From Escherichia phage 6948, in the sequence record OL362272.1: a stretch of DNA of 44,545 nucleotides; one strand, written 5' to 3'. Positions 1 to 39,730 of the stretch are shown one piece after another; positions within the stretch are counted from its first letter, which is position 1, and each line of letters begins with the position of its first letter. The translations under genes and the position numbers were made by a program. The notes beneath the pieces were generated by a model that saw only the letters and a list, made by a program, of their open reading frames with translations, searched no databases and was not told where the DNA came from.

Positions 1-300
1 TTGAGCGTACACAATAAACATGCAGCTACAGAGGATGAGGTTGGCATTCTGCATGGTGCTATTACCAAAATCTTCAATAAGAAAGCACAGGCAATACTGG
101 ACACTATAGAAGAAGACCCTGATGCAGCATTACATTTAGTGTCTGGTAAGGATATTGGTGCGATGTGTAAGTGGGTTCTTGATAACGGCATTACCGCCAC
201 ACCTGCTGCACAGCAGGAAGAGTCCAAGTTATCTAAGCGCCTCAAGGCTATCCGAGAGGCATCCAGTGGTAAGATAATTCAATTCACTAAGGAGGATTGA
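1..300 (+). CDS. terminase small subunit, 3' portion (5' end lies outside the window)
   Basis: Open frame runs from window start to TGA at 298-300, overlapping the large-terminase ATG (ATGA). Assignment is by position immediately upstream of the large subunit as in T7 gene 18/19; no diagnostic motif recognised. Confidence 0.45.
   Translation: MSVHNKHAATEDEVGILHGAITKIFNKKAQAILDTIEEDPDAALHLVSGKDIGAMCKWVLDNGITATPAAQQEESKLSKRLKAIREASSGKIIQFTKED
92..114 (+). promoter_or_regulatory. phage-RNAP promoter (inside the small-terminase gene)
   Basis: CAATACTGGACACTATAGAAGAA; matches the window consensus ATTTACYGGACACTATAGAAG except at -17 to -14. Confidence 0.5.
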
Positions 301-2198
301 TGGCTAAGGCAAGAGAATCACAAGCGGAGGCTCTTGCCAGATGGGAGATGCTACAGGAGTTACAGCAGACCTTTCCTTACACAGCGGAAGGTTTGCTTCT
401 CTTTGCAGATACAGTTATTCATAACTTAATTGCAGGCAACCCTCATCTGATTCGTATGCAGGCTGATATCTTGAAGTTCCTATTTTACGGACACAAGTAC
501 CGCCTCATCGAAGCGCCTCGTGGTATCGCTAAGACAACACTATCAGCAATCTATACGGTATTCCGTATTATTCATGAACCGCATAAGCGTATCATGGTTG
601 TGTCCCAAAACGCCAAGCGAGCAGAGGAAATCGCAGGTTGGGTAGTTAAAATCTTCCGTGGCTTAGACTTTCTTGAGTTTATGCTGCCGGATATCTACGC
701 TGGGGATCGTGCATCCGTTAAGGCGTTTGAGATTCATTACACCCTACGTGGTAGTGATAAGTCTCCTTCTGTATCTTGTTACTCAATCGAAGCAGGTATG
801 CAGGGTGCTCGTGCTGATATTATTCTAGCGGATGACGTAGAGTCGATGCAGAACGCTCGTACGGCAGCGGGCCGTGCCTTGCTTGAGGAACTGACTAAGG
901 AGTTTGAATCTATCAACCAGTTTGGGGATATCATTTACCTTGGTACACCTCAGAACGTAAACTCTATCTACAACAACCTACCTGCTCGTGGTTACTCTGT
1001 TCGTATCTGGACTGCGCGTTACCCTTCAGTAGAGCAAGAGCAATGTTATGGCGACTTCCTTGCACCTATGATTGTTCAAGATATGAAGGACAACCCAGCA
1101 CTTCGCTCAGGGTACGGGTTGGATGGTAATAGTGGTGCACCTTGTGCCCCTGAAATGTATGATGATGAAGTTCTGATTGAGAAGGAAATCTCTCAGGGTG
1201 CTGCTAAGTTCCAGCTTCAGTTCATGCTTAACACTCGCATGATGGATGCTGACAGATACCCATTACGCCTGAACAATCTAATCTTCACCTCGTTTGGTAC
1301 AGAGGAAGTCCCTGTGATGCCTACGTGGAGTAATGATTCCATAAACATCATTGGTGATGCACCTAAGTATGGTAACAAGCCTACGGATTTCATGTACAGA
1401 CCTGTAGCTCGCCCATATGAATGGGGTGCTGTCTCCCGCAAGATTATGTATATTGACCCTGCGGGTGGCGGTAAGAATGGGGATGAGACGGGTGTGGCCA
1501 TCGTATTCCTGCACGGCACATTCATTTATGTGTATCAGTGCTTTGGTGTACCTGGCGGATACCGAGAATCGTCCCTGAATCGCATTGTGCAGGCCGCAAA
1601 GCAGGCGGGTGTTAAAGAGGTATTCATTGAGAAGAACTTTGGTCATGGCGCGTTTGAGGCGGTAATTAAGCCGTACTTTGAACGAGAGTGGCCTGTAACT
1701 CTGGAAGAAGATTACGCCACCGGACAGAAAGAATTGCGTATCATTGAGACGCTGGAGCCGCTCATGGCAGCCCATAGGCTTATCTTCAATGCAGAGATGG
1801 TGAAGTCAGACTTTGAGTCGGTACAGCACTATCCGCTTGAACTACGCATGTCCTACAGTCTTTTCAATCAAATGTCGAACATAACGATTGAGAAGAACAG
1901 CCTCCGGCACGATGACCGCCTAGACGCCCTGTATGGCGCTATCCGGCAATTAACTTCTCAGATAGACTATGACGAGGTTACACGGATTAATCGCCTCAGA
2001 GCGCAGGAGATGCGAGATTACATCCATGCTATGAACACACCTCATCTACGCAGGGCAATGCTATATGGGGATTACGGTACTGAGCGAAGAGTGACCAACA
2101 CTTCCGTAGCGATGCAGCAGCGAGTTTACGGGCAGAACTACCGAAATAAATCGGCAAGCAGAAATACACTTTCTGCAAGGATTTCAAGGACTTATTAA
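300..2198 (+). CDS. terminase large subunit (DNA maturase B)
   Basis: 632 aa; Walker A-like segment EAPRGIAKTT near the N-terminus, acidic nuclease-type segments (ILADDVES, MYIDPAGGG), size and position typical of T7 gp19-like terminases; RBS GGAGG before ATG 300. Confidence 0.9.
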   Translation: MAKARESQAEALARWEMLQELQQTFPYTAEGLLLFADTVIHNLIAGNPHLIRMQADILKFLFYGHKYRLIEAPRGIAKTTLSAIYTVFRIIHEPHKRIMVVSQNAKRAEEIAGWVVKIFRGLDFLEFMLPDIYAGDRASVKAFEIHYTLRGSDKSPSVSCYSIEAGMQGARADIILADDVESMQNARTAAGRALLEELTKEFESINQFGDIIYLGTPQNVNSIYNNLPARGYSVRIWTARYPSVEQEQCYGDFLAPMIVQDMKDNPALRSGYGLDGNSGAPCAPEMYDDEVLIEKEISQGAAKFQLQFMLNTRMMDADRYPLRLNNLIFTSFGTEEVPVMPTWSNDSINIIGDAPKYGNKPTDFMYRPVARPYEWGAVSRKIMYIDPAGGGKNGDETGVAIVFLHGTFIYVYQCFGVPGGYRESSLNRIVQAAKQAGVKEVFIEKNFGHGAFEAVIKPYFEREWPVTLEEDYATGQKELRIIETLEPLMAAHRLIFNAEMVKSDFESVQHYPLELRMSYSLFNQMSNITIEKNSLRHDDRLDALYGAIRQLTSQIDYDEVTRINRLRAQEMRDYIHAMNTPHLRRAMLYGDYGTERRVTNTSVAMQQRVYGQNYRNKSASRNTLSARISRTY

Positions 2199-7682: not shown

Positions 7683-7832
7683 ATGCCATTAATCAAATCA
7701 GTTAAGCAAAGTGCTGTACGCCAGAACACAGAAGAACTTATTCAATCAGGACGTGACCCTAAGCAAGCCTATGCGATTGCCAAGGATGTACAACGTCGTG
7801 CTATGAAGAAACCTTCTGCATCTTCTGCGTAA
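7683..7832 (+). CDS. small hypothetical protein
   Basis: 49 aa basic peptide, RBS AGGAAG upstream; not in ORF track (<60 aa). Confidence 0.3.
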   Translation: MPLIKSVKQSAVRQNTEELIQSGRDPKQAYAIAKDVQRRAMKKPSASSA

Positions 7833-7902
7833 GCAGGTTAATATCTTAGTGTACACAAGGGCAGACCTAGGTTTGCTCTTAGTGTAATCCAAAGGAGGTA
7901 AC

Positions 7903-8031
7903 ATGCTGAAAGATGGTTGGGTTTCATATGACCCTACAGACCCTACGAATTGGCTACAGGTTATCGCTATAGCTTGTGCAGGTAGCCTATTGGCTGCCAT
8001 GATGTATTCATTATGGATGTACACAAAGTAA
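7903..8031 (+). CDS. small hydrophobic protein
   Basis: 42 aa, strong RBS AAAGGAGG 7 nt upstream; one predicted TM helix (LQVIAIACAGSLLAAMMYSLW). Confidence 0.35.
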   Translation: MLKDGWVSYDPTDPTNWLQVIAIACAGSLLAAMMYSLWMYTK

Positions 8032-8680
8032 CCAAAGTCAAAATTTTGATGTAGGCGTGTGTCAGCTCTCTCGCCCTCGCCCTCGCCGGGTTGCCCCCAT
8101 AGGGTGGCCTGAGGGAATCCGTCTTCGACGGGCAGGGCTGATGTACTCCTTGGATAGTACAAGGGGGGGCGGAGGGAACGCCTAGGGAGGCCCAGGAATG
8201 GCTTAGTGGTGGACAAGGTGATTACCTTAGTGAAGCCTCTTAGTGCAGTCCTGAGGCCATTCAGGGCCATTCCTGAGCGTTTGACAGGGTGGGAGGGTGT
8301 GGGCTATCTGTTCGTTTCGTTCACTCCGCTTGCGCTACGTTCACTCGCTCACGTGTACCTTAGGTTATTCCTTGATGGATAGCTTAGGTTAGCCTTAGTG
8401 GACTACCTTAGTTAAAGCCTTAGTGCTTCACTTAGTATCAGCTTAGTAGTGTGCCTTAGTAAGTCTTAGTGTCTTCTCTTAGTGATTGCACATGCAAGCA
8501 TGTAAGATGCCATTAGGTCGCGGTCGGTAGACCGCTAAAGAAGAAGTATAGTAATAAGATGCAGTAGGAGGAACACCAGAAACCTAGCCAACCTAGCCTA
8601 TCCTAGCTCTGTATCTATTGCTTTTCCTTAGTCTAACATGTGAGACAACCTAGATTTATCTTAGTGATGATATCTTAGTG

Positions 8681-8709
8681 TTGACAAGGCCATCTCAATA
8701 TAATACTAT
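8681..8709 (+). promoter_or_regulatory. candidate host sigma70 early promoter
   Basis: TTGACA (8681-8686), 17-nt spacer, TACTAT (8704-8709); upstream of the first early ORFs. Confidence 0.3.
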
Positions 8710-8781
8710 TCATCACGTAGGCAGCACTGAGGTGCTTAGTAGCCAGCTAGTAAGGCATACGAAGAGACTAGCGCTTACATT

Positions 8782-8794
8782 GCTCTTTAACAAT
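8782..8794 (+). promoter_or_regulatory. conserved early-region 13-mer GCTCTTTAACAAT (copy 1), candidate RNase III processing element
   Basis: Exact 13-mer occurs three times in the early region; the same motif sits just upstream of gene 0.3 in T7, as recalled. Confidence 0.3.
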
Positions 8795-8810
8795 TTGCTT
8801 AGTGTAACCT

Positions 8811-9326: not shown

Positions 9327-9339
9327 GCTCTTTAACAAT
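9327..9339 (+). promoter_or_regulatory. conserved early-region 13-mer GCTCTTTAACAAT (copy 2)
   Basis: Exact repeat; preceded by palindrome AAGACGGCGACGTCTT (9301-9316). Confidence 0.3.
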
Positions 9340-9385
9340 ACGGTTTGTGTCTTGATAGGCTAACTAACTAACTAAGGTAATTATC

Positions 9386-9538: not shown

Positions 9539-9551
9539 GCTCTTTAACAAT
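9539..9551 (+). promoter_or_regulatory. conserved early-region 13-mer GCTCTTTAACAAT (copy 3), upstream of the Ocr-like gene
   Basis: Exact repeat about 95 nt upstream of the gene 0.3 start. Confidence 0.3.
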
Positions 9552-9647
9552 TTGGATGGTAGCTTCTTAGTCTGGATAGGTTAAACCTAGGGGATTCTCT
9601 TGAGTCTCCTATAATGTAACCTAACTAACTAAATGAGGATTAATAAC

Positions 9648-10003: not shown

Positions 10004-10117
10004 ATGGAAAAGCTATACAACTTCATCTTTTCAGACGGTGTAACCCTGAAGTGTTCCCTGCGTTTCGCACAAATTCGTGAGGAAGTACTAGGCACTACAT
10101 ACAAACTATTTAGCTGA
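10004..10117 (+). CDS. small early hypothetical protein
   Basis: 37 aa; ATG 3 nt after the Ocr stop. Confidence 0.25.
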   Translation: MEKLYNFIFSDGVTLKCSLRFAQIREEVLGTTYKLFS

Positions 10118-10130
10118 CACTATAAGAGAA
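10106..10130 (+). promoter_or_regulatory. variant phage-RNAP promoter-like site in the early region
   Basis: TATTTAGCTGACACTATAAGAGAAG; closest in this window to the SP6 form ATTTAGGTGACACTATAG but the initiating G is displaced. Confidence 0.4.
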
Positions 10131-10421: not shown

Positions 10422-10484
10422 CTAGCCTATAGCCTACCTGAGTGGGCTATGTGATATTTACTTACACTATATAAGGTGACTATT

Positions 10485-11408
10485 ATGACTACTGAAAACA
10501 TCCTCCTGTCTGTCCGTGAAGCTGCAACCGCTGAGATTAAGCAGCATTTGGATAATATCGGCACTTCTTACATCAAAGTTGGCGCTTGTCTGAATGAATT
10601 ACGCGGTGATTTCGAAGGTCAAAAAGACTTTTTAGCTTATGTAGAATCAGAGTTCGGCATCAAGAAAGCACAATGCTACAAGCTGATGAGTGTAGCCCGT
10701 GTCTTTGAAGGAGACGAACGCTTTAAAGGTGTGGCTATGCGTGTAATGCTGGCGCTTGTTCCTTTCGCTGATGAAAATATGATCATGGAGAAGGCCGCAG
10801 AACTCGCCGCAGAGGGCAAGCTGGACACTAACGCCGTAAACGCCCTGATTGATCCTAAGAAAGAGACAAAGGCCGAGACGGTACAACCTAAGGTTGAGTC
10901 GGTAAAACCGCAGGAGAACGCGACTGAGGCCGCAGAAACTATGCAAGGACATGCAACCTTTGAGGATTTCATATTAGAGAAGGCGAAAGAGGAGCTACAA
11001 AGTGTGCCGCCAGCAAGTGAGTCGGATGACGACAAATCAGCACCGTGGGAAGAGGAAAGCAAGCCGGAAGCGCCAAAGGCCGCGCCACTGGACAACACGG
11101 CTAACACCGAGAGTGCCGCTATTGCTGGCCTTCTGGCACAAATTAAAGCACTGACTGAGCAATTACAGGCAGCCAATGACCGCATCGCCTCCTTAAGTAG
11201 CGCACGCGAAAGCAAGAAGGCAGCCGCGCCTATGCTGCCGCAATTCAAATCTTCCTGCTTCTATGCTCGCTTAGGTTTAAGCGCTGAGGAGGCAACGAAG
11301 AAAACAGCAGTTAACAAGGCACGCCGCGAACTGGTTAAGCTAGGCTACGGCGAAGGCCATGAAGCATGGCCCTTAATCTCTGAGGCAGTAGAAGAATTAA
11401 CTAAGTAA
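10485..11408 (+). CDS. early hypothetical protein (gp0.7 slot; no kinase motifs seen)
   Basis: 307 aa from ATG 10485 (RBS AAGGTGA); structured N-terminal part followed by acidic/Ala-rich coiled-coil-like region. Confidence 0.55.
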   Translation: MTTENILLSVREAATAEIKQHLDNIGTSYIKVGACLNELRGDFEGQKDFLAYVESEFGIKKAQCYKLMSVARVFEGDERFKGVAMRVMLALVPFADENMIMEKAAELAAEGKLDTNAVNALIDPKKETKAETVQPKVESVKPQENATEAAETMQGHATFEDFILEKAKEELQSVPPASESDDDKSAPWEEESKPEAPKAAPLDNTANTESAAIAGLLAQIKALTEQLQAANDRIASLSSARESKKAAAPMLPQFKSSCFYARLGLSAEEATKKTAVNKARRELVKLGYGEGHEAWPLISEAVEELTK

Positions 11409-11471: not shown

Positions 11472-14099
11472 ATGCAAGACCTACACGCTATTCAACTTCA
11501 ACTTGAAGAAGAAATGTTTAACGGCGGTATCCGTCGCTTTGAAGCGGACCAACAACGCCAGATTGCATCCGGTAATGAATCAGACACGGCATGGAATCGC
11601 CGCTTATTGTCCGAGTTAATCGCGCCAATGGCTGAAGGTATTCAGGCATACAAGGAAGAGTATGAAGGTAAAAGAGGCCGTGCACCGCGTGCATTAGCTT
11701 TCATTAACTGCGTAGAAAACGAAGTGGCAGCATATATCACGATGAAAATCGTTATGGATATGCTGAACACGGATGTAACCTTGCAGGCTATAGCCATGAA
11801 TGTAGCTGACCGCATTGAGGACCAAGTACGTTTTAGCAAGCTGGAAGGTCACGCCGCCAAATACTTTGAGAAAGTTAAGAAGTCACTTAAGGCAAGTAAG
11901 ACTAAATCATATCGCCATGCGCACAACGTAGCGGTCGTGGCTGAGAAGTCAGTAGCTGACCGTGACGCTGATTTCTCTCGCTGGGAGGCATGGCCTAAAG
12001 ACACCTTGCTGCAAATTGGGATGACCTTGCTTGAAATCTTAGAGAATAGCGTATTCTTCAACGGGCAACCTGTCTTCCTCCGCACCTTGCGCACTAATGG
12101 TGGCAAGCATGGTGTTTACTACTTACAGACCAGTGAGCACGTAGGGGAGTGGATTACAGCATTTAAAGAACATGTAGCGCAACTTAGTCCAGCCTATGCT
12201 CCTTGCGTCATCCCTCCGCGTCCGTGGGTATCACCTTTTAACGGCGGTTTCCACACTGAGAAAGTAGCAAGCCGTATTCGTCTGGTAAAAGGAAACCGCG
12301 AACACGTCCGCAAGCTGACCAAAAAGCAAATGCCAGCGGTTTACAAGGCTGTTAACGCTTTGCAGGCGACTAAGTGGCAGGTTAATAAAGAGGTTTTACA
12401 GGTTGTGGAGGACGTTATACGTCTAGACCTCGGCTATGGTGTACCTTCCTTTAAACCACTCATCGACCGTGAGAACAAGCCAGCTAATCCGGTGCCGTTA
12501 GAGTTCCAGCACCTGCGAGGCCGTGAACTGAAAGAAATGCTTACGCCGGAACAATGGCAAGCCTTTATCAACTGGAAAGGTGAATGTACTAAGCTGTACA
12601 CCGCTGAAACTAAGCGCGGAAGCAAATCGGCGGCAACCGTTCGCATGGTTGGTCAGGCCCGTAAATATAGCCAGTTCGACGCAATCTACTTCGTGTATGC
12701 ACTGGACAGCCGCAGCCGTGTATACGCGCAATCTAGCACGCTCTCGCCGCAATCAAACGACTTAGGCAAGGCATTGCTCCGTTTTACCGAAGGGCAGCGT
12801 CTTGATAGCGCTGAGGCGCTTAAGTGGTTTTTGGTGAACGGGGCGAATAACTGGGGTTGGGATAAGAAAACTTTTGACGTGCGCACCTCTAACGTGCTGG
12901 ATGGCGAATTTCAAGACATGTGCCGCGACATTGCAGCCGATCCGCTGACCTTCACTCAATGGGTAAATGCTGATTCCCCTTACGGCTTCCTTGCATGGTG
13001 CTTTGAATATGCGCGTTATCTGGATGCACTGGATGAAGGCACGCAAGACCAATTCATGACGCATCTACCCGTCCATCAAGACGGTAGTTGCTCTGGTATC
13101 CAGCACTATAGCGCGATGTTACGCGATGAAGTAGGTGCGAAAGCAGTAAACCTTAAGCCTTCTGACTTCCCTCAAGATATTTATGGCGCGGTTGCGCAGG
13201 TTGTTATCCAGAAGAATTACGCCTACATGAATGCAGACGATGCAGAGATTTTCACATCTGGAAGCGTCACACTTACAGGTGCAGAACTGCGTAGCATGGC
13301 TAGTGCGTGGGATATGATAGGAATCACTCGCGGATTGACCAAAAAGCCCGTAATGACACTACCTTATGGCAGCACACGTCTAACCTGCCGTGAATCAGTG
13401 ATTGATTATATCGTTGATTTGGAAGAAAAAGAGGCCCAACGAGCTATTGCGGAAGGGCGTACCGCCAATCCTGTACATCCTTTTGATAATGACCGTAAGG
13501 ACAGCCTGACACCTAGTGCAGCTTATAACTATATGACGGCTTTAATCTGGCCTTCTATTTCGGAAGTGGTTAAAGCTCCTATAGTGGCAATGAAAATGAT
13601 TCGTCAGCTTGCCCGTTTCGCAGCTAAAAGGAATGAAGGCTTAGAGTATACCTTGCCTACTGGCTTCATCTTGCAACAAAAGATTATGGCTACCGACATG
13701 CTACGCGTATCCACTTGCTTGATGGGTGAAATCAAGATGAGTCTACAGATTGAGACTGATGTAGTGGATGAAACGGCTATGATGGGCGCTGCTGCTCCTA
13801 ACTTTGTTCACGGGCATGATGCTAGTCATCTCATCCTGACTGTATGTGACCTCGTTGACAAGGGCATTACATCCATCGCAGTCATCCATGATTCTTTCGG
13901 TACTCACGCAGGCCGTACAGCCGATCTACGTGATAGTCTAAGGGCAGAAATGGTGAAGATGTATCAAGGCCGTAATGCCCTGCAAAGCCTGTTAGATGAG
14001 CATGAAGAACGCTGGTTAGTAGACACCGGAATCCAAGTGCCAGAGCAAGGAGAGTTTGACCTTAACGAAATCTTAGTATCTGACTATTGCTTCGCATAA
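11472..14099 (+). CDS. single-subunit DNA-directed RNA polymerase (SP6-type)
   Basis: 875 aa; motifs [31 protein letters not shown] and C-terminal ...YCFA typical of T7/SP6 RNAP; N-terminus [16 protein letters not shown] resembles SP6 RNAP as recalled. Confidence 0.95.
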
Positions 14100-14107
14100 T
14101 ATTAATA

Positions 14108-14138
14108 GGCCATTCCTTCGGGAGTGGCCTTTTCTTTT
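14108..14138 (+). terminator. intrinsic terminator after the RNAP gene (early terminator analogue)
   Basis: Stem GGCCATTCC / GGAGTGGCC with TTCG tetraloop followed by TTTTCTTTT. Confidence 0.6.
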
Positions 14139-14172
14139 ACCTACTACCGGTAACATTTCATTAACATAAAGT

Positions 14173-14188
14173 GTCTCACATGTGAGAC
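14173..14188. repeat. conserved palindrome GTCTCACATGTGAGAC (copy 1)
   Basis: Perfect 16-bp palindrome, 3 nt upstream of promoter 14191. Confidence 0.8.
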
Positions 14189-14190
14189 TT

Positions 14191-14213: not shown

Positions 14214-14353
14214 CCGTCGGAGACGGGAAAGAAAGGGAAGATAAAGGATATAAAGGAAGTAATAGGTATTAAAGGTTATATAGGTTATCTAGGAATACCT
14301 ATTACCTTCTTCCTTCCTCTTATTACCACTTAGAGGAAGGGCAGATCTAGGTT

Positions 14354-14369
14354 GTCTCACATGTGAGAC
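14354..14369. repeat. conserved palindrome GTCTCACATGTGAGAC (copy 2)
   Basis: Identical 16-mer, 5 nt upstream of promoter 14375. Confidence 0.8.
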
Positions 14370-14374
14370 TTCGT

Positions 14375-14773: not shown

Positions 14774-16761
14774 TGGCTATTATTAATAACATCCCGTGCC
14801 CTGCCTGCCAGAAGAATGGGCACGATAAATCAGGCAATCATCTCATGATATTTGATGATGGTGCTGGCTATTGTAACCGTGGTCACTTCCATGATAATGG
14901 GAAGCCCTATTACCATAAGCCAGAGGGTGGTATCGAGATAACCGAATTGCCTATTACTGGCAATATCAAATATACACCTTCTCAATTCAAAGAAATGGAG
15001 AAGGAAGGGAAGATAAGCGACCCTAAGCTACGCGCCATCGCTCTTGGTGGTATGCGTATGAAAGACCGTTGGGAGGTCATGAATGAGCAAGAAAGGGCAG
15101 ACCAAGAAGCAGAGTGGAAACTTGATGTTGAATGGTTCCTCACGCTTAAGCGTAAGAACCTTGTTTCCCGACACATTCGCGGCGACATTTGCGCATTGTA
15201 TGATGTACGTGTCGGACACGATGAAGAGGGTAGAGTCTCGCGGCATTACTATCCACGCTTCGAGAAAGGTGAGCTAGTAGGAGCTAAGTGTCGTACCTTA
15301 CCTAAAGATTTCAAGTTTGGACACTTAGGTAAACTCTTTGGTATGCAAGATCTTTTCGGTATGAATACTTTGTCTCACGTGTTAGACAAGGGGAGACGAA
15401 AGGATTGCTTGCTTATTGTAGGCGGTGAACTTGATGCACTAGCAGCGCAGCAGATGCTCCTTGATTCTGCCAAAGGTACTAAGTGGGAAGGTCAGCCATA
15501 CCATGTATGGTCTGTCAATAAAGGTGAGTCTTGCCTTGAAGAGATAGTGCAAAACCGTGAGCACATAGCCCAATTCAAGAAGATTATATGGGGCTTTGAT
15601 GGCGACGAGGTGGGGCAGAAGCAGAACCAACAAGCTGCTCGCCTGTTTCCTGGCAAATCCTACATCCTCGAATATCCATCTGGTTGCAAAGATGCTAACA
15701 AGGCATTGATGGCTGGCAAGGCTAAAGAGTTTGTAGATGCATGGTTTAATGCCAAGTCATCTGATGAAGTCTTTGGTAGCCAGATTAAATCTATCGCATC
15801 TCAAAGGGATAAGCTCAAGGCTGCACGTCCAGAGCAAGGACTATCATGGCCTTGGCCTAAGCTGAACAAGGTAACGCTAGGTATTCGTAAGAACCAACTT
15901 ATCATTGTAGGCGCAGGCTCTGGTGTAGGTAAGACTGAGTTCCTTCGTGAAGTAGTTAAGCACCTCATTGAAGAACACGGTGAATCTGTAGGCATCATTT
16001 CTACAGAAGACCCGATGGTCAAGGTGTCCCGTGCTTTTATCGGCAAGTGGATTGATAAGCGTATTGAGTTACCGCCAACCAACGACCCGAAAGAAGATGG
16101 ATACCGTGAGGTGTTCGACTACACCGAAGAAGAGGCTAACGCCGCCATTGATTATGTAGCTGATACAGGTAAGCTGTTTGTAGCTGACCTAGAGGGTGAC
16201 TATTCGATGGAAAAGGTAGAGCAAACTTGCCTAGAGTTTGAGGCTATGGGCATTTCTAATATCATCATTGATAACTTAACGGGGATTAAATTAGATGAGC
16301 GTGCTTTTGGTGGGAAGGTTGGTGCACTTGATGAATGCGTCAAGCGGATTGGTACTATCAAAGACCGACACCCGGTTACTATATTCCTTGTATCACACCT
16401 TACACGTCCTCCGGCAAACCGTACCCAACACGAAGAAGGTGGCGAGGTTATCCTTTCTGACTTCCGAGGTTCAGGCGCTATCGGATTCTGGGCATCTTAC
16501 GCCTTGGGGATTGAGCGTAATACAAGAGCTGAAACGCTTGACGAAAGGACTACCACGTACATCTCATGTGTCAAAGACCGCGACCAAGGTATCTGGACTG
16601 GAACCAAGGTCATGCTTAAGGGTGACATTCAAACCGGACGTTTAATGGAACCACAAGCCCGTACTAAGTCATTTGACACCGGCGAAGCAAGGCAACAAGA
16701 AGTACCGGATTTACCGGACACTATAGAAGAGACTAACTTCGATGAAGAAAGTGAGTTCTGA
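14773..16761 (+). CDS. bifunctional DNA primase/helicase (gp4-like)
   Basis: 662 aa; N-terminal zinc ribbon CPACQ...CNRGH, central TOPRIM-like region, Walker A GAGSGVGKT, Walker B IIIDNL; acidic C-terminus ending ...DEESEF. Confidence 0.9.
   Translation: MAIINNIPCPACQKNGHDKSGNHLMIFDDGAGYCNRGHFHDNGKPYYHKPEGGIEITELPITGNIKYTPSQFKEMEKEGKISDPKLRAIALGGMRMKDRWEVMNEQERADQEAEWKLDVEWFLTLKRKNLVSRHIRGDICALYDVRVGHDEEGRVSRHYYPRFEKGELVGAKCRTLPKDFKFGHLGKLFGMQDLFGMNTLSHVLDKGRRKDCLLIVGGELDALAAQQMLLDSAKGTKWEGQPYHVWSVNKGESCLEEIVQNREHIAQFKKIIWGFDGDEVGQKQNQQAARLFPGKSYILEYPSGCKDANKALMAGKAKEFVDAWFNAKSSDEVFGSQIKSIASQRDKLKAARPEQGLSWPWPKLNKVTLGIRKNQLIIVGAGSGVGKTEFLREVVKHLIEEHGESVGIISTEDPMVKVSRAFIGKWIDKRIELPPTNDPKEDGYREVFDYTEEEANAAIDYVADTGKLFVADLEGDYSMEKVEQTCLEFEAMGISNIIIDNLTGIKLDERAFGGKVGALDECVKRIGTIKDRHPVTIFLVSHLTRPPANRTQHEEGGEVILSDFRGSGAIGFWASYALGIERNTRAETLDERTTTYISCVKDRDQGIWTGTKVMLKGDIQTGRLMEPQARTKSFDTGEARQQEVPDLPDTIEETNFDEESEF
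16709..16731 (+). promoter_or_regulatory. phage-RNAP promoter inside the 3' end of the primase/helicase gene
   Basis: ATTTACCGGACACTATAGAAGAG. Confidence 0.7.
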
Positions 16762-16781: not shown

Positions 16782-16799
16782 TGTCTCACACGTGAGACA
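16782..16799. repeat. conserved palindrome family, TGTCTCACACGTGAGACA (copy 3)
   Basis: 7-bp arms TGTCTCA/TGAGACA with CACG centre; flanks extend the stem (GGGCTTG...CAGGCTC); after primase/helicase. Confidence 0.75.
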
Positions 16800-17925: not shown

Positions 17926-17943
17926 TGTCTCACGTGTGAGACA
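17926..17943. repeat. conserved palindrome family, TGTCTCACGTGTGAGACA (copy 4)
   Basis: Extended stem GGTTGTCTCA/TGAGACAGCC followed by TTTT, so also terminator-like. Confidence 0.75.
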
Positions 17944-23226: not shown

Positions 23227-23227
23227 A

Positions 23228-23243
23228 GTCTCACGTGTGAGAC
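23228..23243. repeat. conserved palindrome GTCTCACGTGTGAGAC (copy 5)
   Basis: Perfect 16-mer immediately after the 23226 stop and upstream of promoter 23259. Confidence 0.8.
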
Positions 23244-23258
23244 AAATCGGTGTCCGGT

Positions 23259-39712: not shown

Positions 39713-39730
39713 TGTCTCACATGTGAGACA
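39713..39730. repeat. conserved palindrome family, TGTCTCACATGTGAGACA (copy 6)
   Basis: Between internal virion proteins B and D; extended stem GGCTTG.../...CAGGTC, then TCTTTAT. Confidence 0.75.

What the first reader, a model, noticed from the sequence alone, without database searches (positions are those of the whole stretch)
10485..11408. 307-aa early protein in the gp0.7 slot without kinase signatures
In T7 this position encodes the protein kinase and host-shutoff protein gp0.7. Here the ORF has no visible kinase motifs (no glycine loop or catalytic HRD/DFG) and instead has a structured N-terminal part followed by a long acidic, Ala-rich helical region. It is a candidate host-takeover or anti-defence factor of unknown mechanism.
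Basis: inference. Interest (0 to 1): 0.5.

Follow-up and report, generated by a model that had tools for sequence, protein, structure and literature searches.

The report
Phage DNA-binding protein with matching palindromes
The gene just upstream of the phage RNA polymerase gene is not a kinase: it encodes a two-domain protein (a ParB/KorB-like DNA-binding head and a degenerate chaperone-type J domain) that most likely recognises an 18-bp palindrome repeated eight times in the phage's own genome, which points to an undescribed layer of gene control in SP6/K1E-type phages.

Summary
The ORF is real (10485-11408, 307 aa). It is gp6 of a K1E-like Vectrevirus, lies directly upstream of the SP6-type RNA polymerase gene, and is annotated 'hypothetical' everywhere. 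It has no similarity to T7 gp0.7 and no kinase domain.

- an N-terminal ParB/KorB-type helix-turn-helix domain, a distant DUF3102 relative;
- an acidic disordered linker;
- a coiled coil;
- a C-terminal J-like domain in which HPD is replaced by GYG.

Away from the given coordinates, the window holds eight copies of TGTCTCAC-NN-GTGAGACA (0.02 expected by chance). They lie at transcription-unit boundaries, and one lies inside the primase-helicase gene.

Every sampled phage with a gp6 homologue has such a multi-copy palindrome with a clade-specific half-site. No gp6-less relative has this palindrome type.

Half-site position 5 co-varies with gp6 residue 66 in the putative recognition helix: C with Lys, A with Asn or His. 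This happened in three independent transitions, and residue 66 is the only such column in gp6.

My best reading is that gp6 is a dimeric, KorB-like multi-site DNA binder acting on the phage's own genome. Binding and function are inferred, not shown.

The parts
10485..11408 (+). gp6 ORF (307 aa plus stop), the K1E/K1-5 gp6 orthologue
10473..10478 (+). Shine-Dalgarno sequence AAGGTG, 6 nt before the ATG
10512..10859 (+). N-terminal six-helix domain (residues 10-125): ParB/KorB-type HTH fold, distant DUF3102 relative
10665..10706 (+). Putative recognition helix (residues 61-74, KAQCYKLMSVARVF). The K66 codon is at 10680-10682.
   Evidence: Helix 46-57, turn, helix 61-74 in the model. Residue 66 co-varies with the palindrome half-site.
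10860..11099 (+). Acidic, Pro-rich linker predicted disordered (residues 126-205)
   Evidence: pLDDT about 48-70. Composition: D+E 20, K+R 9, P 8.
11109..11213 (+). Long single helix, probable coiled-coil dimerisation element (residues 209-243)
   Evidence: Only weak coiled-coil family hits.
11220..11405 (+). C-terminal J-like domain (residues 246-307). GYG (residues 287-289, nt 11343-11351) stands where J domains have HPD.
8630..8647 (.). Palindrome copy 1 (AGTCTAACATGTGAGACA, imperfect), about 35 nt upstream of the -35 box of a sigma-70-like early promoter at 8681-8709
14172..14189 (.). Palindrome copy 2, directly abutting a phage promoter (TATTTACCGGACACTATAGG). It lies 40 nt after the real intrinsic terminator.
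14353..14370 (.). Palindrome copy 3, 4 nt before a second phage-promoter-like site
15371..15388 (.). Palindrome copy 4, inside the primase-helicase gene (codons S-H-V-L-D). The right arm is limited by a would-be TGA stop.
16782..16799 (.). Palindrome copy 5, after the primase-helicase gene, inside a longer stem followed by a T-run
17926..17943 (.). Palindrome copy 6, before the DNA polymerase gene, in a terminator-like context
23227..23244 (.). Palindrome copy 7, 14 nt upstream of the phage promoter at 23259
39713..39730 (.). Palindrome copy 8, after the 982-aa internal-virion-protein gene, in a terminator-like context
11472..14099 (+). SP6-type single-subunit RNA polymerase gene. gp6 homologues lie upstream of it, adjacent or with one or two small ORFs between.
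14107..14130 (+). Canonical intrinsic terminator (10-bp GC-rich stem plus T-run) after the polymerase gene, separate from the palindromes
10428..10451 (+). Conserved RNA hairpin just upstream of the gp6 ribosome-binding site, with compensatory changes in SP6 and a Klebsiella phage
10108..10128 (+). Phage-type promoter upstream of gene 5, gp6 and the polymerase gene

Best explanation
gp6 is a sequence-specific DNA-binding protein that acts on the phage's own genome.

Proposed mechanism:
- Its N-terminal ParB/KorB-type helix-turn-helix domain, paired through the central coiled coil, reads the two half-sites of the 18-bp palindrome TGTCTCAC-NN-GTGAGACA.
- Lys66 in the recognition helix contacts the G of the C:G pair at half-site position 5.
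- The eight sites lie upstream of an early host-type promoter, directly against three phage-type promoter or promoter-like sites, at three terminator-like hairpins and inside one gene. Bound gp6 would therefore act as a KorB-like global regulator or insulator of the phage transcription programme.
- The C-terminal J-like domain lacks HPD, so it cannot fire DnaK's ATPase in the canonical way. It would serve as a protein-protein contact module with an unknown partner: DnaK, a host J protein, or the phage polymerase encoded next door.

Status of each step:
- Shown: the ORF, the folds, the missing HPD, the palindromes and their enrichment, the co-distribution and the co-variation.
- Inferred: physical binding, dimerisation, the regulatory outcome and the partner of the J-like domain.
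For: Fold.
- DUF3102 matches 34 of 98 relatives and DnaJ matches 12 of 98.
- The family profile hits J-domain structures. BFVD Foldseek finds DUF3102 proteins.

Sites in the window.
- There are 8 copies against 0.02 expected.

Co-distribution.
- Analogous multi-copy palindromes occur at syntenic positions in SP6, Klebsiella, Proteus and Vibrio phages. T7 and phiKMV have none.
- In an RNA-polymerase-anchored sample, 13 of 13 assessable gp6-positive loci carry a GTC/GTA-type family with 3-9 copies, against 0 of 37 gp6-negative loci.

Co-variation.
- GTCTCAC goes with K66 in five clades. GTC[C/T]AAC goes with N66 (H66 in SP6) in two clades. GTCTACA goes with Y63 and R66. GTACTAG goes with W63.
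- Residue 66 is the only one of 239 gp6 columns whose residues are disjoint between the two main classes. RNA polymerase (1 of 844 columns) and primase-helicase (1 of 563) show only heterogeneous columns.
- The polymerase tree shows three independent co-transitions, including a reversal in the K1E-like lineage nested inside the N66 clade.
- Lys with G and Asn with A fits established protein-DNA readout preferences (my own knowledge).

Site inside the helicase gene.
- The K1E lineage changed Asn to His in the helicase so that the left arm became GTCTCAC. It also changed TTG to TTA in the right arm. It stopped where a TGA stop codon would arise.
- This breaks RNA pairing but maximises half-site identity.

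Not simply terminators.
- A separate true terminator lies between the polymerase gene and the first downstream palindrome.
Against: - No binding was measured; everything rests on co-variation and fold.
- Three window copies sit in longer stems with G.U pairs and T-runs, and their flanks co-vary between phages. At least those copies also work as RNA hairpins.
- One Proteus record annotates such a copy as a terminator.
- In SP6 itself six of seven asymmetric copies have the orientation that keeps a U.G pair in the + strand RNA, which hints at an RNA-level constraint.
- The N domain is net acidic: 20 D+E against 15 K+R.
- The window protein itself does not reach any Pfam threshold.
- Only gp6, the RNA polymerase, the primase-helicase, the DNA polymerase and one small ORF were screened for co-varying columns. 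Another phage protein could be the true reader.
- The spacer between half-sites differs between clades (2 or 3 nt), which a rigid dimer would not tolerate.
Confidence: 0.5

Rival explanations
1. The palindromes are RNA hairpins only (terminators, pause or processing sites for the phage or host polymerase), and gp6 has nothing to do with them. gp6 would then be a host-directed early protein, for example binding host DNA or a host chaperone.
For: - Three copies have extended stems with G.U pairs and T-runs, with compensatory flank changes between phages.
- A Proteus record annotates one as a rho-independent terminator.
- SP6 copies show an orientation bias compatible with U.G pairing.
Against: - A plain hairpin need not keep the same 7-nt half-site in E. 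coli, Erwinia, Vibrio and Pseudomonas phages whose proteins are 30-45% identical.
- It does not explain all copies in a genome switching together.
- It does not explain the clean Lys/Asn co-variation in a recognition helix over three independent transitions.
- The copy inside the helicase gene gave up base pairing to match the half-site.
- The copy at 14172 sits behind a separate bona fide terminator and has no U-run of its own.
Confidence: 0.2
2. gp6 is an origin-binding or replication accessory protein. It binds the palindromes, especially the palindrome-promoter pair just after the polymerase gene, which is the position of T7's primary origin. Its J-like domain brings in the host Hsp70 system, as SV40 large T antigen or lambda P/DnaK-DnaJ do.
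For: - The protein combines a DNA-binding domain with a J-type domain.
- Two palindrome-promoter units lie 181 bp apart just after the polymerase gene. T7 has phi1.1A and phi1.1B at that place (that these form the T7 primary origin is my own knowledge).
- Six of the eight sites lie in the DNA-metabolism third of the genome.
Against: - The HPD motif, essential for Hsp70 activation, is absent from the whole family.
- Sites also occur far from any plausible origin, at 39713 and in the early leader at 8630.
- Several clades have only one site after the polymerase gene.
Confidence: 0.15
3. gp6 is a host-takeover or anti-defence factor. It could shut off host transcription or block a defence system through its acidic linker or its J-like domain.
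For: - It is an early gene in the gp0.7 slot.
- It has an acidic disordered segment.
- A J-like domain could trap a host J protein or DnaK, by analogy with Tim16-Tim14.
Against: - It has no similarity to any known anti-defence or shut-off protein in Pfam, NCBIfam or PHROGs.
- Such factors are usually variable accessory genes. This one is a syntenic core gene across several subfamilies.
- The only candidate target found is on the phage genome.
Confidence: 0.1

Closest known systems
KorB of IncP plasmid RK2 (ParB-family global repressor)
   Same: - A short palindrome is repeated many times on the replicon, next to promoters: 12 OB sites on RK2 (my own knowledge), 8 sites here.
- Binding would be dimeric.
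   Different: - gp6 has no N-terminal ParB/CTPase domain and no KorB C-terminal dimer domain.
- It is encoded by a strictly lytic podophage.
- It carries a coiled coil and a J-like domain instead.
- Sequence similarity is not detectable.
ParB / Noc / SopB / VirB HTH proteins
   Same: - The HTH-domain fold matches.
- Specificity switches through a few recognition residues, as described for ParB versus Noc (Jalal et al. 2020, recalled from my own knowledge, not checked).
   Different: - There is no CTP-binding domain, so no sliding-clamp spreading is expected.
- The sites are not centromere-like clusters.
Pfam DUF3102 (PF11300)
   Same: - 34 of 98 family representatives match it (best E 1.5e-7).
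- BFVD structure matches are DUF3102 proteins.
   Different: - The window protein itself gives no hit even at E<=10.
- DUF3102 has no known function, so it adds no mechanism.
J-like proteins without HPD (Tim16/Pam16)
   Same: - Such domains act as binding partners, not as Hsp70 activators.
   Different: The context is unrelated (mitochondrial import motor), and no partner is known here.
Phage RB43 Rki and SV40 large T antigen (viral J-domain proteins)
   Same: - All are viral proteins carrying a J-type domain.
   Different: Both keep a functional HPD and act through Hsp70 (my own knowledge). gp6 has none.
T7 gp0.7 (protein kinase / host shut-off)
   Same: Only the map position directly upstream of the RNA polymerase gene.
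   Different: - There is no sequence similarity (E=81).
- There is no kinase domain, and the fold is different.

Membership tests
T7 gp0.7 protein kinase | Sequence similarity to gp0.7 or to a protein kinase domain | tested here: not met
   BLASTP against T7 gp0.7 gives E=81. No kinase family appears in Pfam or NCBIfam.
DUF3102 (PF11300) | Match to the Pfam model at its gathering score | tested here: inconclusive
   The window protein gives no hit at E<=10. 34 of 98 relatives hit the model at E<=0.01, best 1.5e-7. Structure matches to DUF3102 viral proteins reach E 5.8e-4. I read this as a divergent relative.
ParB/KorB superfamily | HTH DNA-binding domain of the ParB/KorB fold | tested here: met
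   [not shown]
ParB/KorB superfamily | N-terminal ParB/Srx-type CTP-binding domain | tested here: not met
   The HTH domain starts at about residue 10. No ParBc hit was found in the protein or in 98 relatives.
ParB/KorB superfamily | Multi-copy palindromic sites on the same replicon | tested here: met
   Eight copies against 0.02 expected. Homologous site sets occur in all sampled gp6-positive phages. Binding itself was not tested.
J-domain proteins (DnaJ/Hsp40, PF00226) | J-domain fold (helices I-IV) | tested here: met
   [not shown]
J-domain proteins (DnaJ/Hsp40, PF00226) | HPD tripeptide between helices II and III | tested here: not met
   HPD aligns to G287-Y288-G289. None of the 93 relatives aligned over the C-terminal domain has HPD there; the nearest is HYNPD. 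The domain is J-like, not a J-domain co-chaperone.
J-domain proteins (DnaJ/Hsp40, PF00226) | Stimulation of Hsp70 (DnaK) ATPase | not testable with these tools
   This needs biochemistry.
Intrinsic terminators (for the palindromes) | GC-rich stem-loop followed by a U-run | tested here: inconclusive
   Copies at 16782, 17926 and 39713 have extended stems and T-runs. Copies at 8630, 14172, 14353, 15371 and 23227 do not, or only weakly. A separate canonical terminator lies at 14107-14130.

The most novel reading that the evidence does not exclude
SP6/K1E-type phages and several other Autographiviridae lineages carry a previously unnoticed regulon. It consists of one early protein encoded just upstream of the RNA polymerase gene (a ParB/KorB-like HTH joined to a J-like domain) and 5-10 co-evolving palindromic operators at transcription-unit boundaries. 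Through its degenerate J domain the protein would couple these DNA sites to the phage polymerase or to the host Hsp70 system. It would so control the early-to-middle switch, termination or read-through, or origin firing. This would be a plasmid-style (KorB-like) global control circuit in a strictly lytic phage.
Probability: 0.4. Interest if true: 0.8.

Novelty: new variant of a known kind. Interest (0 to 1): 0.68.

Why it matters
SP6-type phages supply a standard laboratory RNA polymerase and are used as therapeutic and capsule-specific phages. Their early-to-middle control is assumed to follow T7, although they lack T7's gp0.7 and, from recollection, its gp2.

A conserved DNA-binding protein with its own operator set would be a missing regulator. 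It would give a function to a core 'hypothetical' gene (PHROG 4571) found in hundreds of genomes, and it would explain a conserved repeat now annotated at most as terminators.

It would also offer a compact, orthogonal set of protein-operator pairs with at least four natural specificities. The proposed one-residue switch (K66 to N66) makes the idea directly testable.

Tried and rejected
- Kinase or gp0.7 homology: rejected.
- Annotations carried by homologues in some records ('endolysin/andolysin', 'late transcription factor VLTF-4', 'UPF0137', 'similar to DNA polymerase'): not reproduced by Pfam scans of those proteins.
- Sequence search of the N-domain profile against PDB sequences: nothing.
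- Word-indexed search with the N-domain alignment: only 4 trivial hits, a wasted search.
- Foldseek against the PDB: not significant, though the top hits were ParB, VirB and KorB.
- AFDB library: not available.
- The phage-promoter-like sequence right before the ORF (10457-10477): one base short upstream of the core and not conserved in SP6 or Klebsiella phages, so probably not a promoter.
- Rfam: no family anywhere in the window.
No evidence for host sites, but not conclusive.
- Literature searches for gp6, DUF3102, phage J-like proteins and the palindrome sequences: nothing describing this protein or repeat. The original SP6 genome paper was not held and the K1-5 genome paper is not open access, so prior mention of the repeat there cannot be excluded.
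- Alignment-based locus searches with the full family alignments: failed for lack of a conserved stretch. A 13-sequence alignment worked.

Full report
**1. What is at the coordinates**

The ORF is real. It runs 10485-11408 on the + strand (307 codons plus a stop), with an AAGGTG Shine-Dalgarno sequence six bases upstream. The longer GTG start at 10476 lies inside that Shine-Dalgarno sequence.

The window is a circularly permuted genome of a K1E/K1-5-like Vectrevirus (Molineuxvirinae). The ORF is 99.9% identical at the DNA level to the same gene of phage vB_EcoP-101101UKE1. It is the orthologue of K1E and K1-5 gene 6.

It lies directly upstream of the 875-aa SP6-type RNA polymerase gene (11472-14099). 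Homologues keep that place just upstream of the polymerase gene, adjacent or with one or two small ORFs between, in K1E, Klebsiella, Proteus, Vibrio and Aeromonas phages.

The family has 340 members at 90% clustering and 130 clusters at 50% identity. It corresponds to PHROG 4571, 'unknown function'. Two genome papers that mention it call it unknown.

**2. It is not a kinase**

Pfam and NCBIfam give nothing significant. BLASTP against T7 gp0.7 gives E=81.

**3. Architecture**

An AlphaFold2 model built on 98 diverse relatives has a mean pLDDT of 82.6. It shows four parts:
- a six-helix N-terminal domain (about residues 10-125, pLDDT above 90);
- a low-confidence segment (126-205) that is acidic and Pro-rich;
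- one long helix (209-243);
- a compact C-terminal domain (246-307, pLDDT 94-98).

Sequence evidence agrees:
- 34 of 98 relatives match Pfam DUF3102 in the N domain, and 12 of 98 match DnaJ in the C domain.
- A family profile finds many J-domain structures, best E 6.6e-4.
- BFVD structure matches are DUF3102 proteins.

The HPD tripeptide that defines functional J domains aligns to G287-Y288-G289. It is absent from the C-terminal domain of all 93 relatives aligned there. The domain is therefore J-like, in the sense of Tim16/Pam16, and should not activate DnaK in the canonical way.

**4. The lead outside the coordinates**

A repeat search over the whole window found eight copies of the near-perfect 18-bp palindrome TGTCTCAC-NN-GTGAGACA. 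They start at 8630, 14172, 14353, 15371, 16782, 17926, 23227 and 39713. Shuffles of the window give 0.02 on average.

Their contexts are as follows:
- One lies about 35 nt upstream of the -35 box of a strong sigma-70-like early promoter.
- Three lie 1-14 nt upstream of phage-type promoter or promoter-like sites.
- Three lie in longer stems followed by T-runs.
- One lies inside the primase-helicase gene.

A canonical intrinsic terminator (14107-14130) stands between the polymerase gene and the palindrome at 14172. That palindrome is therefore not the early terminator.

**5. Co-distribution with gp6**

Whole genomes of phages that hold gp6 homologues have equivalent multi-copy palindromes at syntenic positions:

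| Phage | Palindrome | Copies |
|---|---|---|
| Klebsiella phage K13PH07C1S | GTCCAAC-NN-GTTGGAC | 6 perfect, 7 allowing one mismatch |
| SP6 | the same, or an asymmetric variant | 9 |
| Proteus PM116 | GTCCAAC(A)-N-(T)GTTGGAC | 5 perfect, 6 allowing one mismatch |
| Vibrio VEN | GTCTCAC-NNN-GTGAGAC | 8 |
| T7, phiKMV | none | 0 |

Thirty-nine loci fetched from viral contigs through the gp6 protein show the same, with further half-site classes GTCTACA and GTACTAG.

I then took an independent sample anchored on the RNA polymerase. I kept only loci with at least 1.5 kb upstream and 3 kb downstream of the polymerase gene. All 13 gp6-positive loci have a GTC/GTA-type family of 3-9 copies, and none of the 37 gp6-negative loci has one. 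One gp6-negative locus has three copies of an unrelated palindrome next to a Bro-N-like gene. These lineages are related, so the counts show co-distribution and not independent events.

**6. Co-variation**

In the model, residues 46-57 and 61-74 form a helix-turn-helix. The second helix (K61 A62 Q63 C64 Y65 K66 L67 M68 ...) is the most conserved stretch of the family.

| Half-site | Recognition-helix residues | Lineages |
|---|---|---|
| GTCTCAC | K66 | K1E-like, Era103-like, Vibrio, two further lineages |
| GTCCAAC or GTCTAAC | N66 (H66 in SP6 itself, whose sites mix the two) | SP6-like, Klebsiella, Proteus, Pectobacterium, L064/L071 |
| GTCTACA | Y63, R66 | L044-L046 |
| GTACTAG | W63 | L042, L047, L096 |

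The loci from the second sample served as a prediction test, and they fitted.

In an unbiased screen, residue 66 is the only one of 239 ungapped gp6 columns whose residues are disjoint between the 'C at position 5' and 'A at position 5' genomes, and it is a clean K against N/H split. The RNA polymerase (1 of 844 columns) and the primase-helicase (1 of 563) each have one disjoint column. Both are heterogeneous, with no consistent residue.

Neighbour-joining trees of the polymerase place the K1E-like phages inside the N66/GTCCAAC clade. Era103-like and Vibrio phages (K66/GTCTCAC) lie outside it. L064/L071 (N66/GTCTAAC) lie next to L059 (K66/GTCTCAC). That makes three independent joint changes of the protein residue and of all sites in the genome.

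Lysine reading the guanine of a C:G pair and asparagine reading adenine is the textbook preference (established knowledge, not tested here).

**7. DNA site or RNA hairpin?**

Evidence for an RNA role:
- Three window copies have extended stems with G.U pairs and U-runs.
- Their flanks change in a compensatory way between phages.
- A Proteus record calls one a terminator.
- Six of seven asymmetric SP6 copies keep a U.G-compatible orientation.

Evidence that sequence identity, and not pairing, is what is selected:
- The same half-site is kept between phages whose proteins are 30-45% identical.
- All copies in a genome switch together.
- The copy inside the helicase gene is informative. A5-clade phages encode S-N-V-L-D (TCC AAC GTG TTG GAC), which is a perfect site. 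K1E-like phages encode S-H-V-L-D (TCT CAC GTG TTA GAC).
  - The left arm became GTCTCAC at the cost of an amino-acid change.
  - The right arm changed synonymously at one position.
  - It stopped where GTG TGA GAC would create a stop codon.
  - The result has a C.U mismatch as RNA. Keeping AAC would have paired perfectly.

I conclude that a sequence-specific reader exists and that gp6 is the best candidate. Some copies probably double as terminator hairpins.

**8. Mechanism proposed, and its limits**

gp6 would dimerise through the coiled coil and bind the palindromes through its HTH. It would act as a KorB-like multi-site regulator or insulator of the phage's own transcription units. The J-like domain would contact an unknown partner.

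Binding, stoichiometry, direction of regulation and partner are all inferred.

Rival readings are listed with their tests:
- the palindromes are RNA elements only, and gp6 is host-directed;
- gp6 is an origin-binding accessory factor that recruits a chaperone;
- gp6 is a host-takeover or anti-defence factor.

Weak points:
- the fold scores are modest;
- the N domain is net acidic;
- the spacer between half-sites varies between clades (2 or 3 nt);
- only five proteins were screened for co-variation.

**9. Comparison with what is known, and novelty**

gp6 works like KorB or ParB-family site-specific binders. It fails their defining N-terminal CTP-binding domain, so it is not a ParB-family member in the strict sense.

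It has a J fold but fails the HPD test, so it is J-like and not a J-domain co-chaperone. It is a divergent DUF3102 relative.

I found no description of this protein's function or of the palindrome set in the searchable literature. The SP6 genome paper was not held and the K1-5 genome paper is not open access, and either may mention the repeats.

I rate it a new variant of a known kind: an HTH regulator plus operators, in an unusual fusion and an unusual host replicon.

Noticed in passing
window 1-2198 and about 7700-8800: The window is a circular permutation of the phage genome. It begins in the terminase small-subunit gene (1-300; large subunit 297-2198), as does a Klebsiella phage record with the same layout. 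The physical left end should lie near 8.3 kb, judged from gene 6 at 2176 in the 44,559-bp phage AAPEc6. The stretch 7700-8800 has no long ORF and holds the early promoters.
   Followed up: partly
window 10428-10451: A 10-bp hairpin lies just upstream of the gp6 ribosome-binding site. SP6 and a Klebsiella phage keep the structure through compensatory base changes. It may be an RNA processing or stability element like the RNase III sites between T7 early genes.
   Followed up: partly
window 10457-10477: ATTTACTTACACTATATAAGG resembles the phage promoter consensus (ATTTACYGGACACTATAGAAG) and overlaps the gp6 Shine-Dalgarno sequence. It is one base short upstream of the core and is not conserved in SP6 or Klebsiella phages, so it is probably not a working promoter.
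   Followed up: partly
window 10108-10128: A phage-type promoter (ATTTAGCTGACACTATAAGAG) lies upstream of gene 5, gp6 and the RNA polymerase gene. The polymerase and gp6 could therefore also be transcribed by the phage enzyme itself, giving positive feedback. A paper on Vibrio phage phiA318 notes the same arrangement (PMC4099482).
   Followed up: no
window 8782-8805, 9327-9350, 9539-9562: The early region holds three copies of GCTCTTTAACAAT(T/A)..., each shortly before an early ORF. Their function is unknown.
   Followed up: no
L005 (SP6) 6263, 7070, 8546, 9382, 14254, 30568: In SP6 itself most palindrome copies are asymmetric (TGTCTAAC-NN-GTTGGACA), always with the T in the left arm. SP6 gp6 has His where its relatives have Asn. 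This may be an evolutionary intermediate between the two half-site classes, or a sign of an RNA-level (U.G) constraint.
   Followed up: partly
L119 1570, 6694, 10884 and ORF 1690-2433: A gp6-negative Autographiviridae contig has three copies of a different perfect palindrome (GAGTATTAATACTC). It encodes a Bro-N-like DNA-binding protein upstream of its RNA polymerase gene. This may be an analogous protein-operator system built from another fold.
   Followed up: no
L062 164, 3195, 3713; L075 163, 1716: Two contigs cut off just upstream of the polymerase gene show further half-site classes: GTCTGACA-N-TGTCAGAC and GTTTCAC-N(2-3)-GTGAAAC. Their gp6 sequence could not be read.
   Followed up: no
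L142 2107-2168, L137, L161, L176 (Bacteroidaceae/Bacteroidales MAGs): The exact 18-mer TGTCTCACNNGTGAGACA occurs in tandem arrays at 22-bp spacing in rumen Bacteroidaceae/Bacteroidales genomes. This is probably an unrelated repeat element.
   Followed up: no
public records of gp6 homologues: Several records carry unsupported names for this protein: 'endolysin/andolysin' (vB_EcoP_B, vB_EcoP_C, P433.1), 'late transcription factor VLTF-4' (Aer_P220), 'UPF0137 family protein' (Roth32) and 'similar to DNA polymerase' (SHAK7704). Pfam scans of two of them, Roth32 and Aer_P220, did not reproduce these.
   Followed up: partly
relatives P0129-P0250: Many distant family members carry an extra 60-150 residues at the N terminus. 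No Pfam family recurred among the 98 relatives apart from DUF3102 and DnaJ; whether any single weak hit falls in these extensions was not checked.
   Followed up: no
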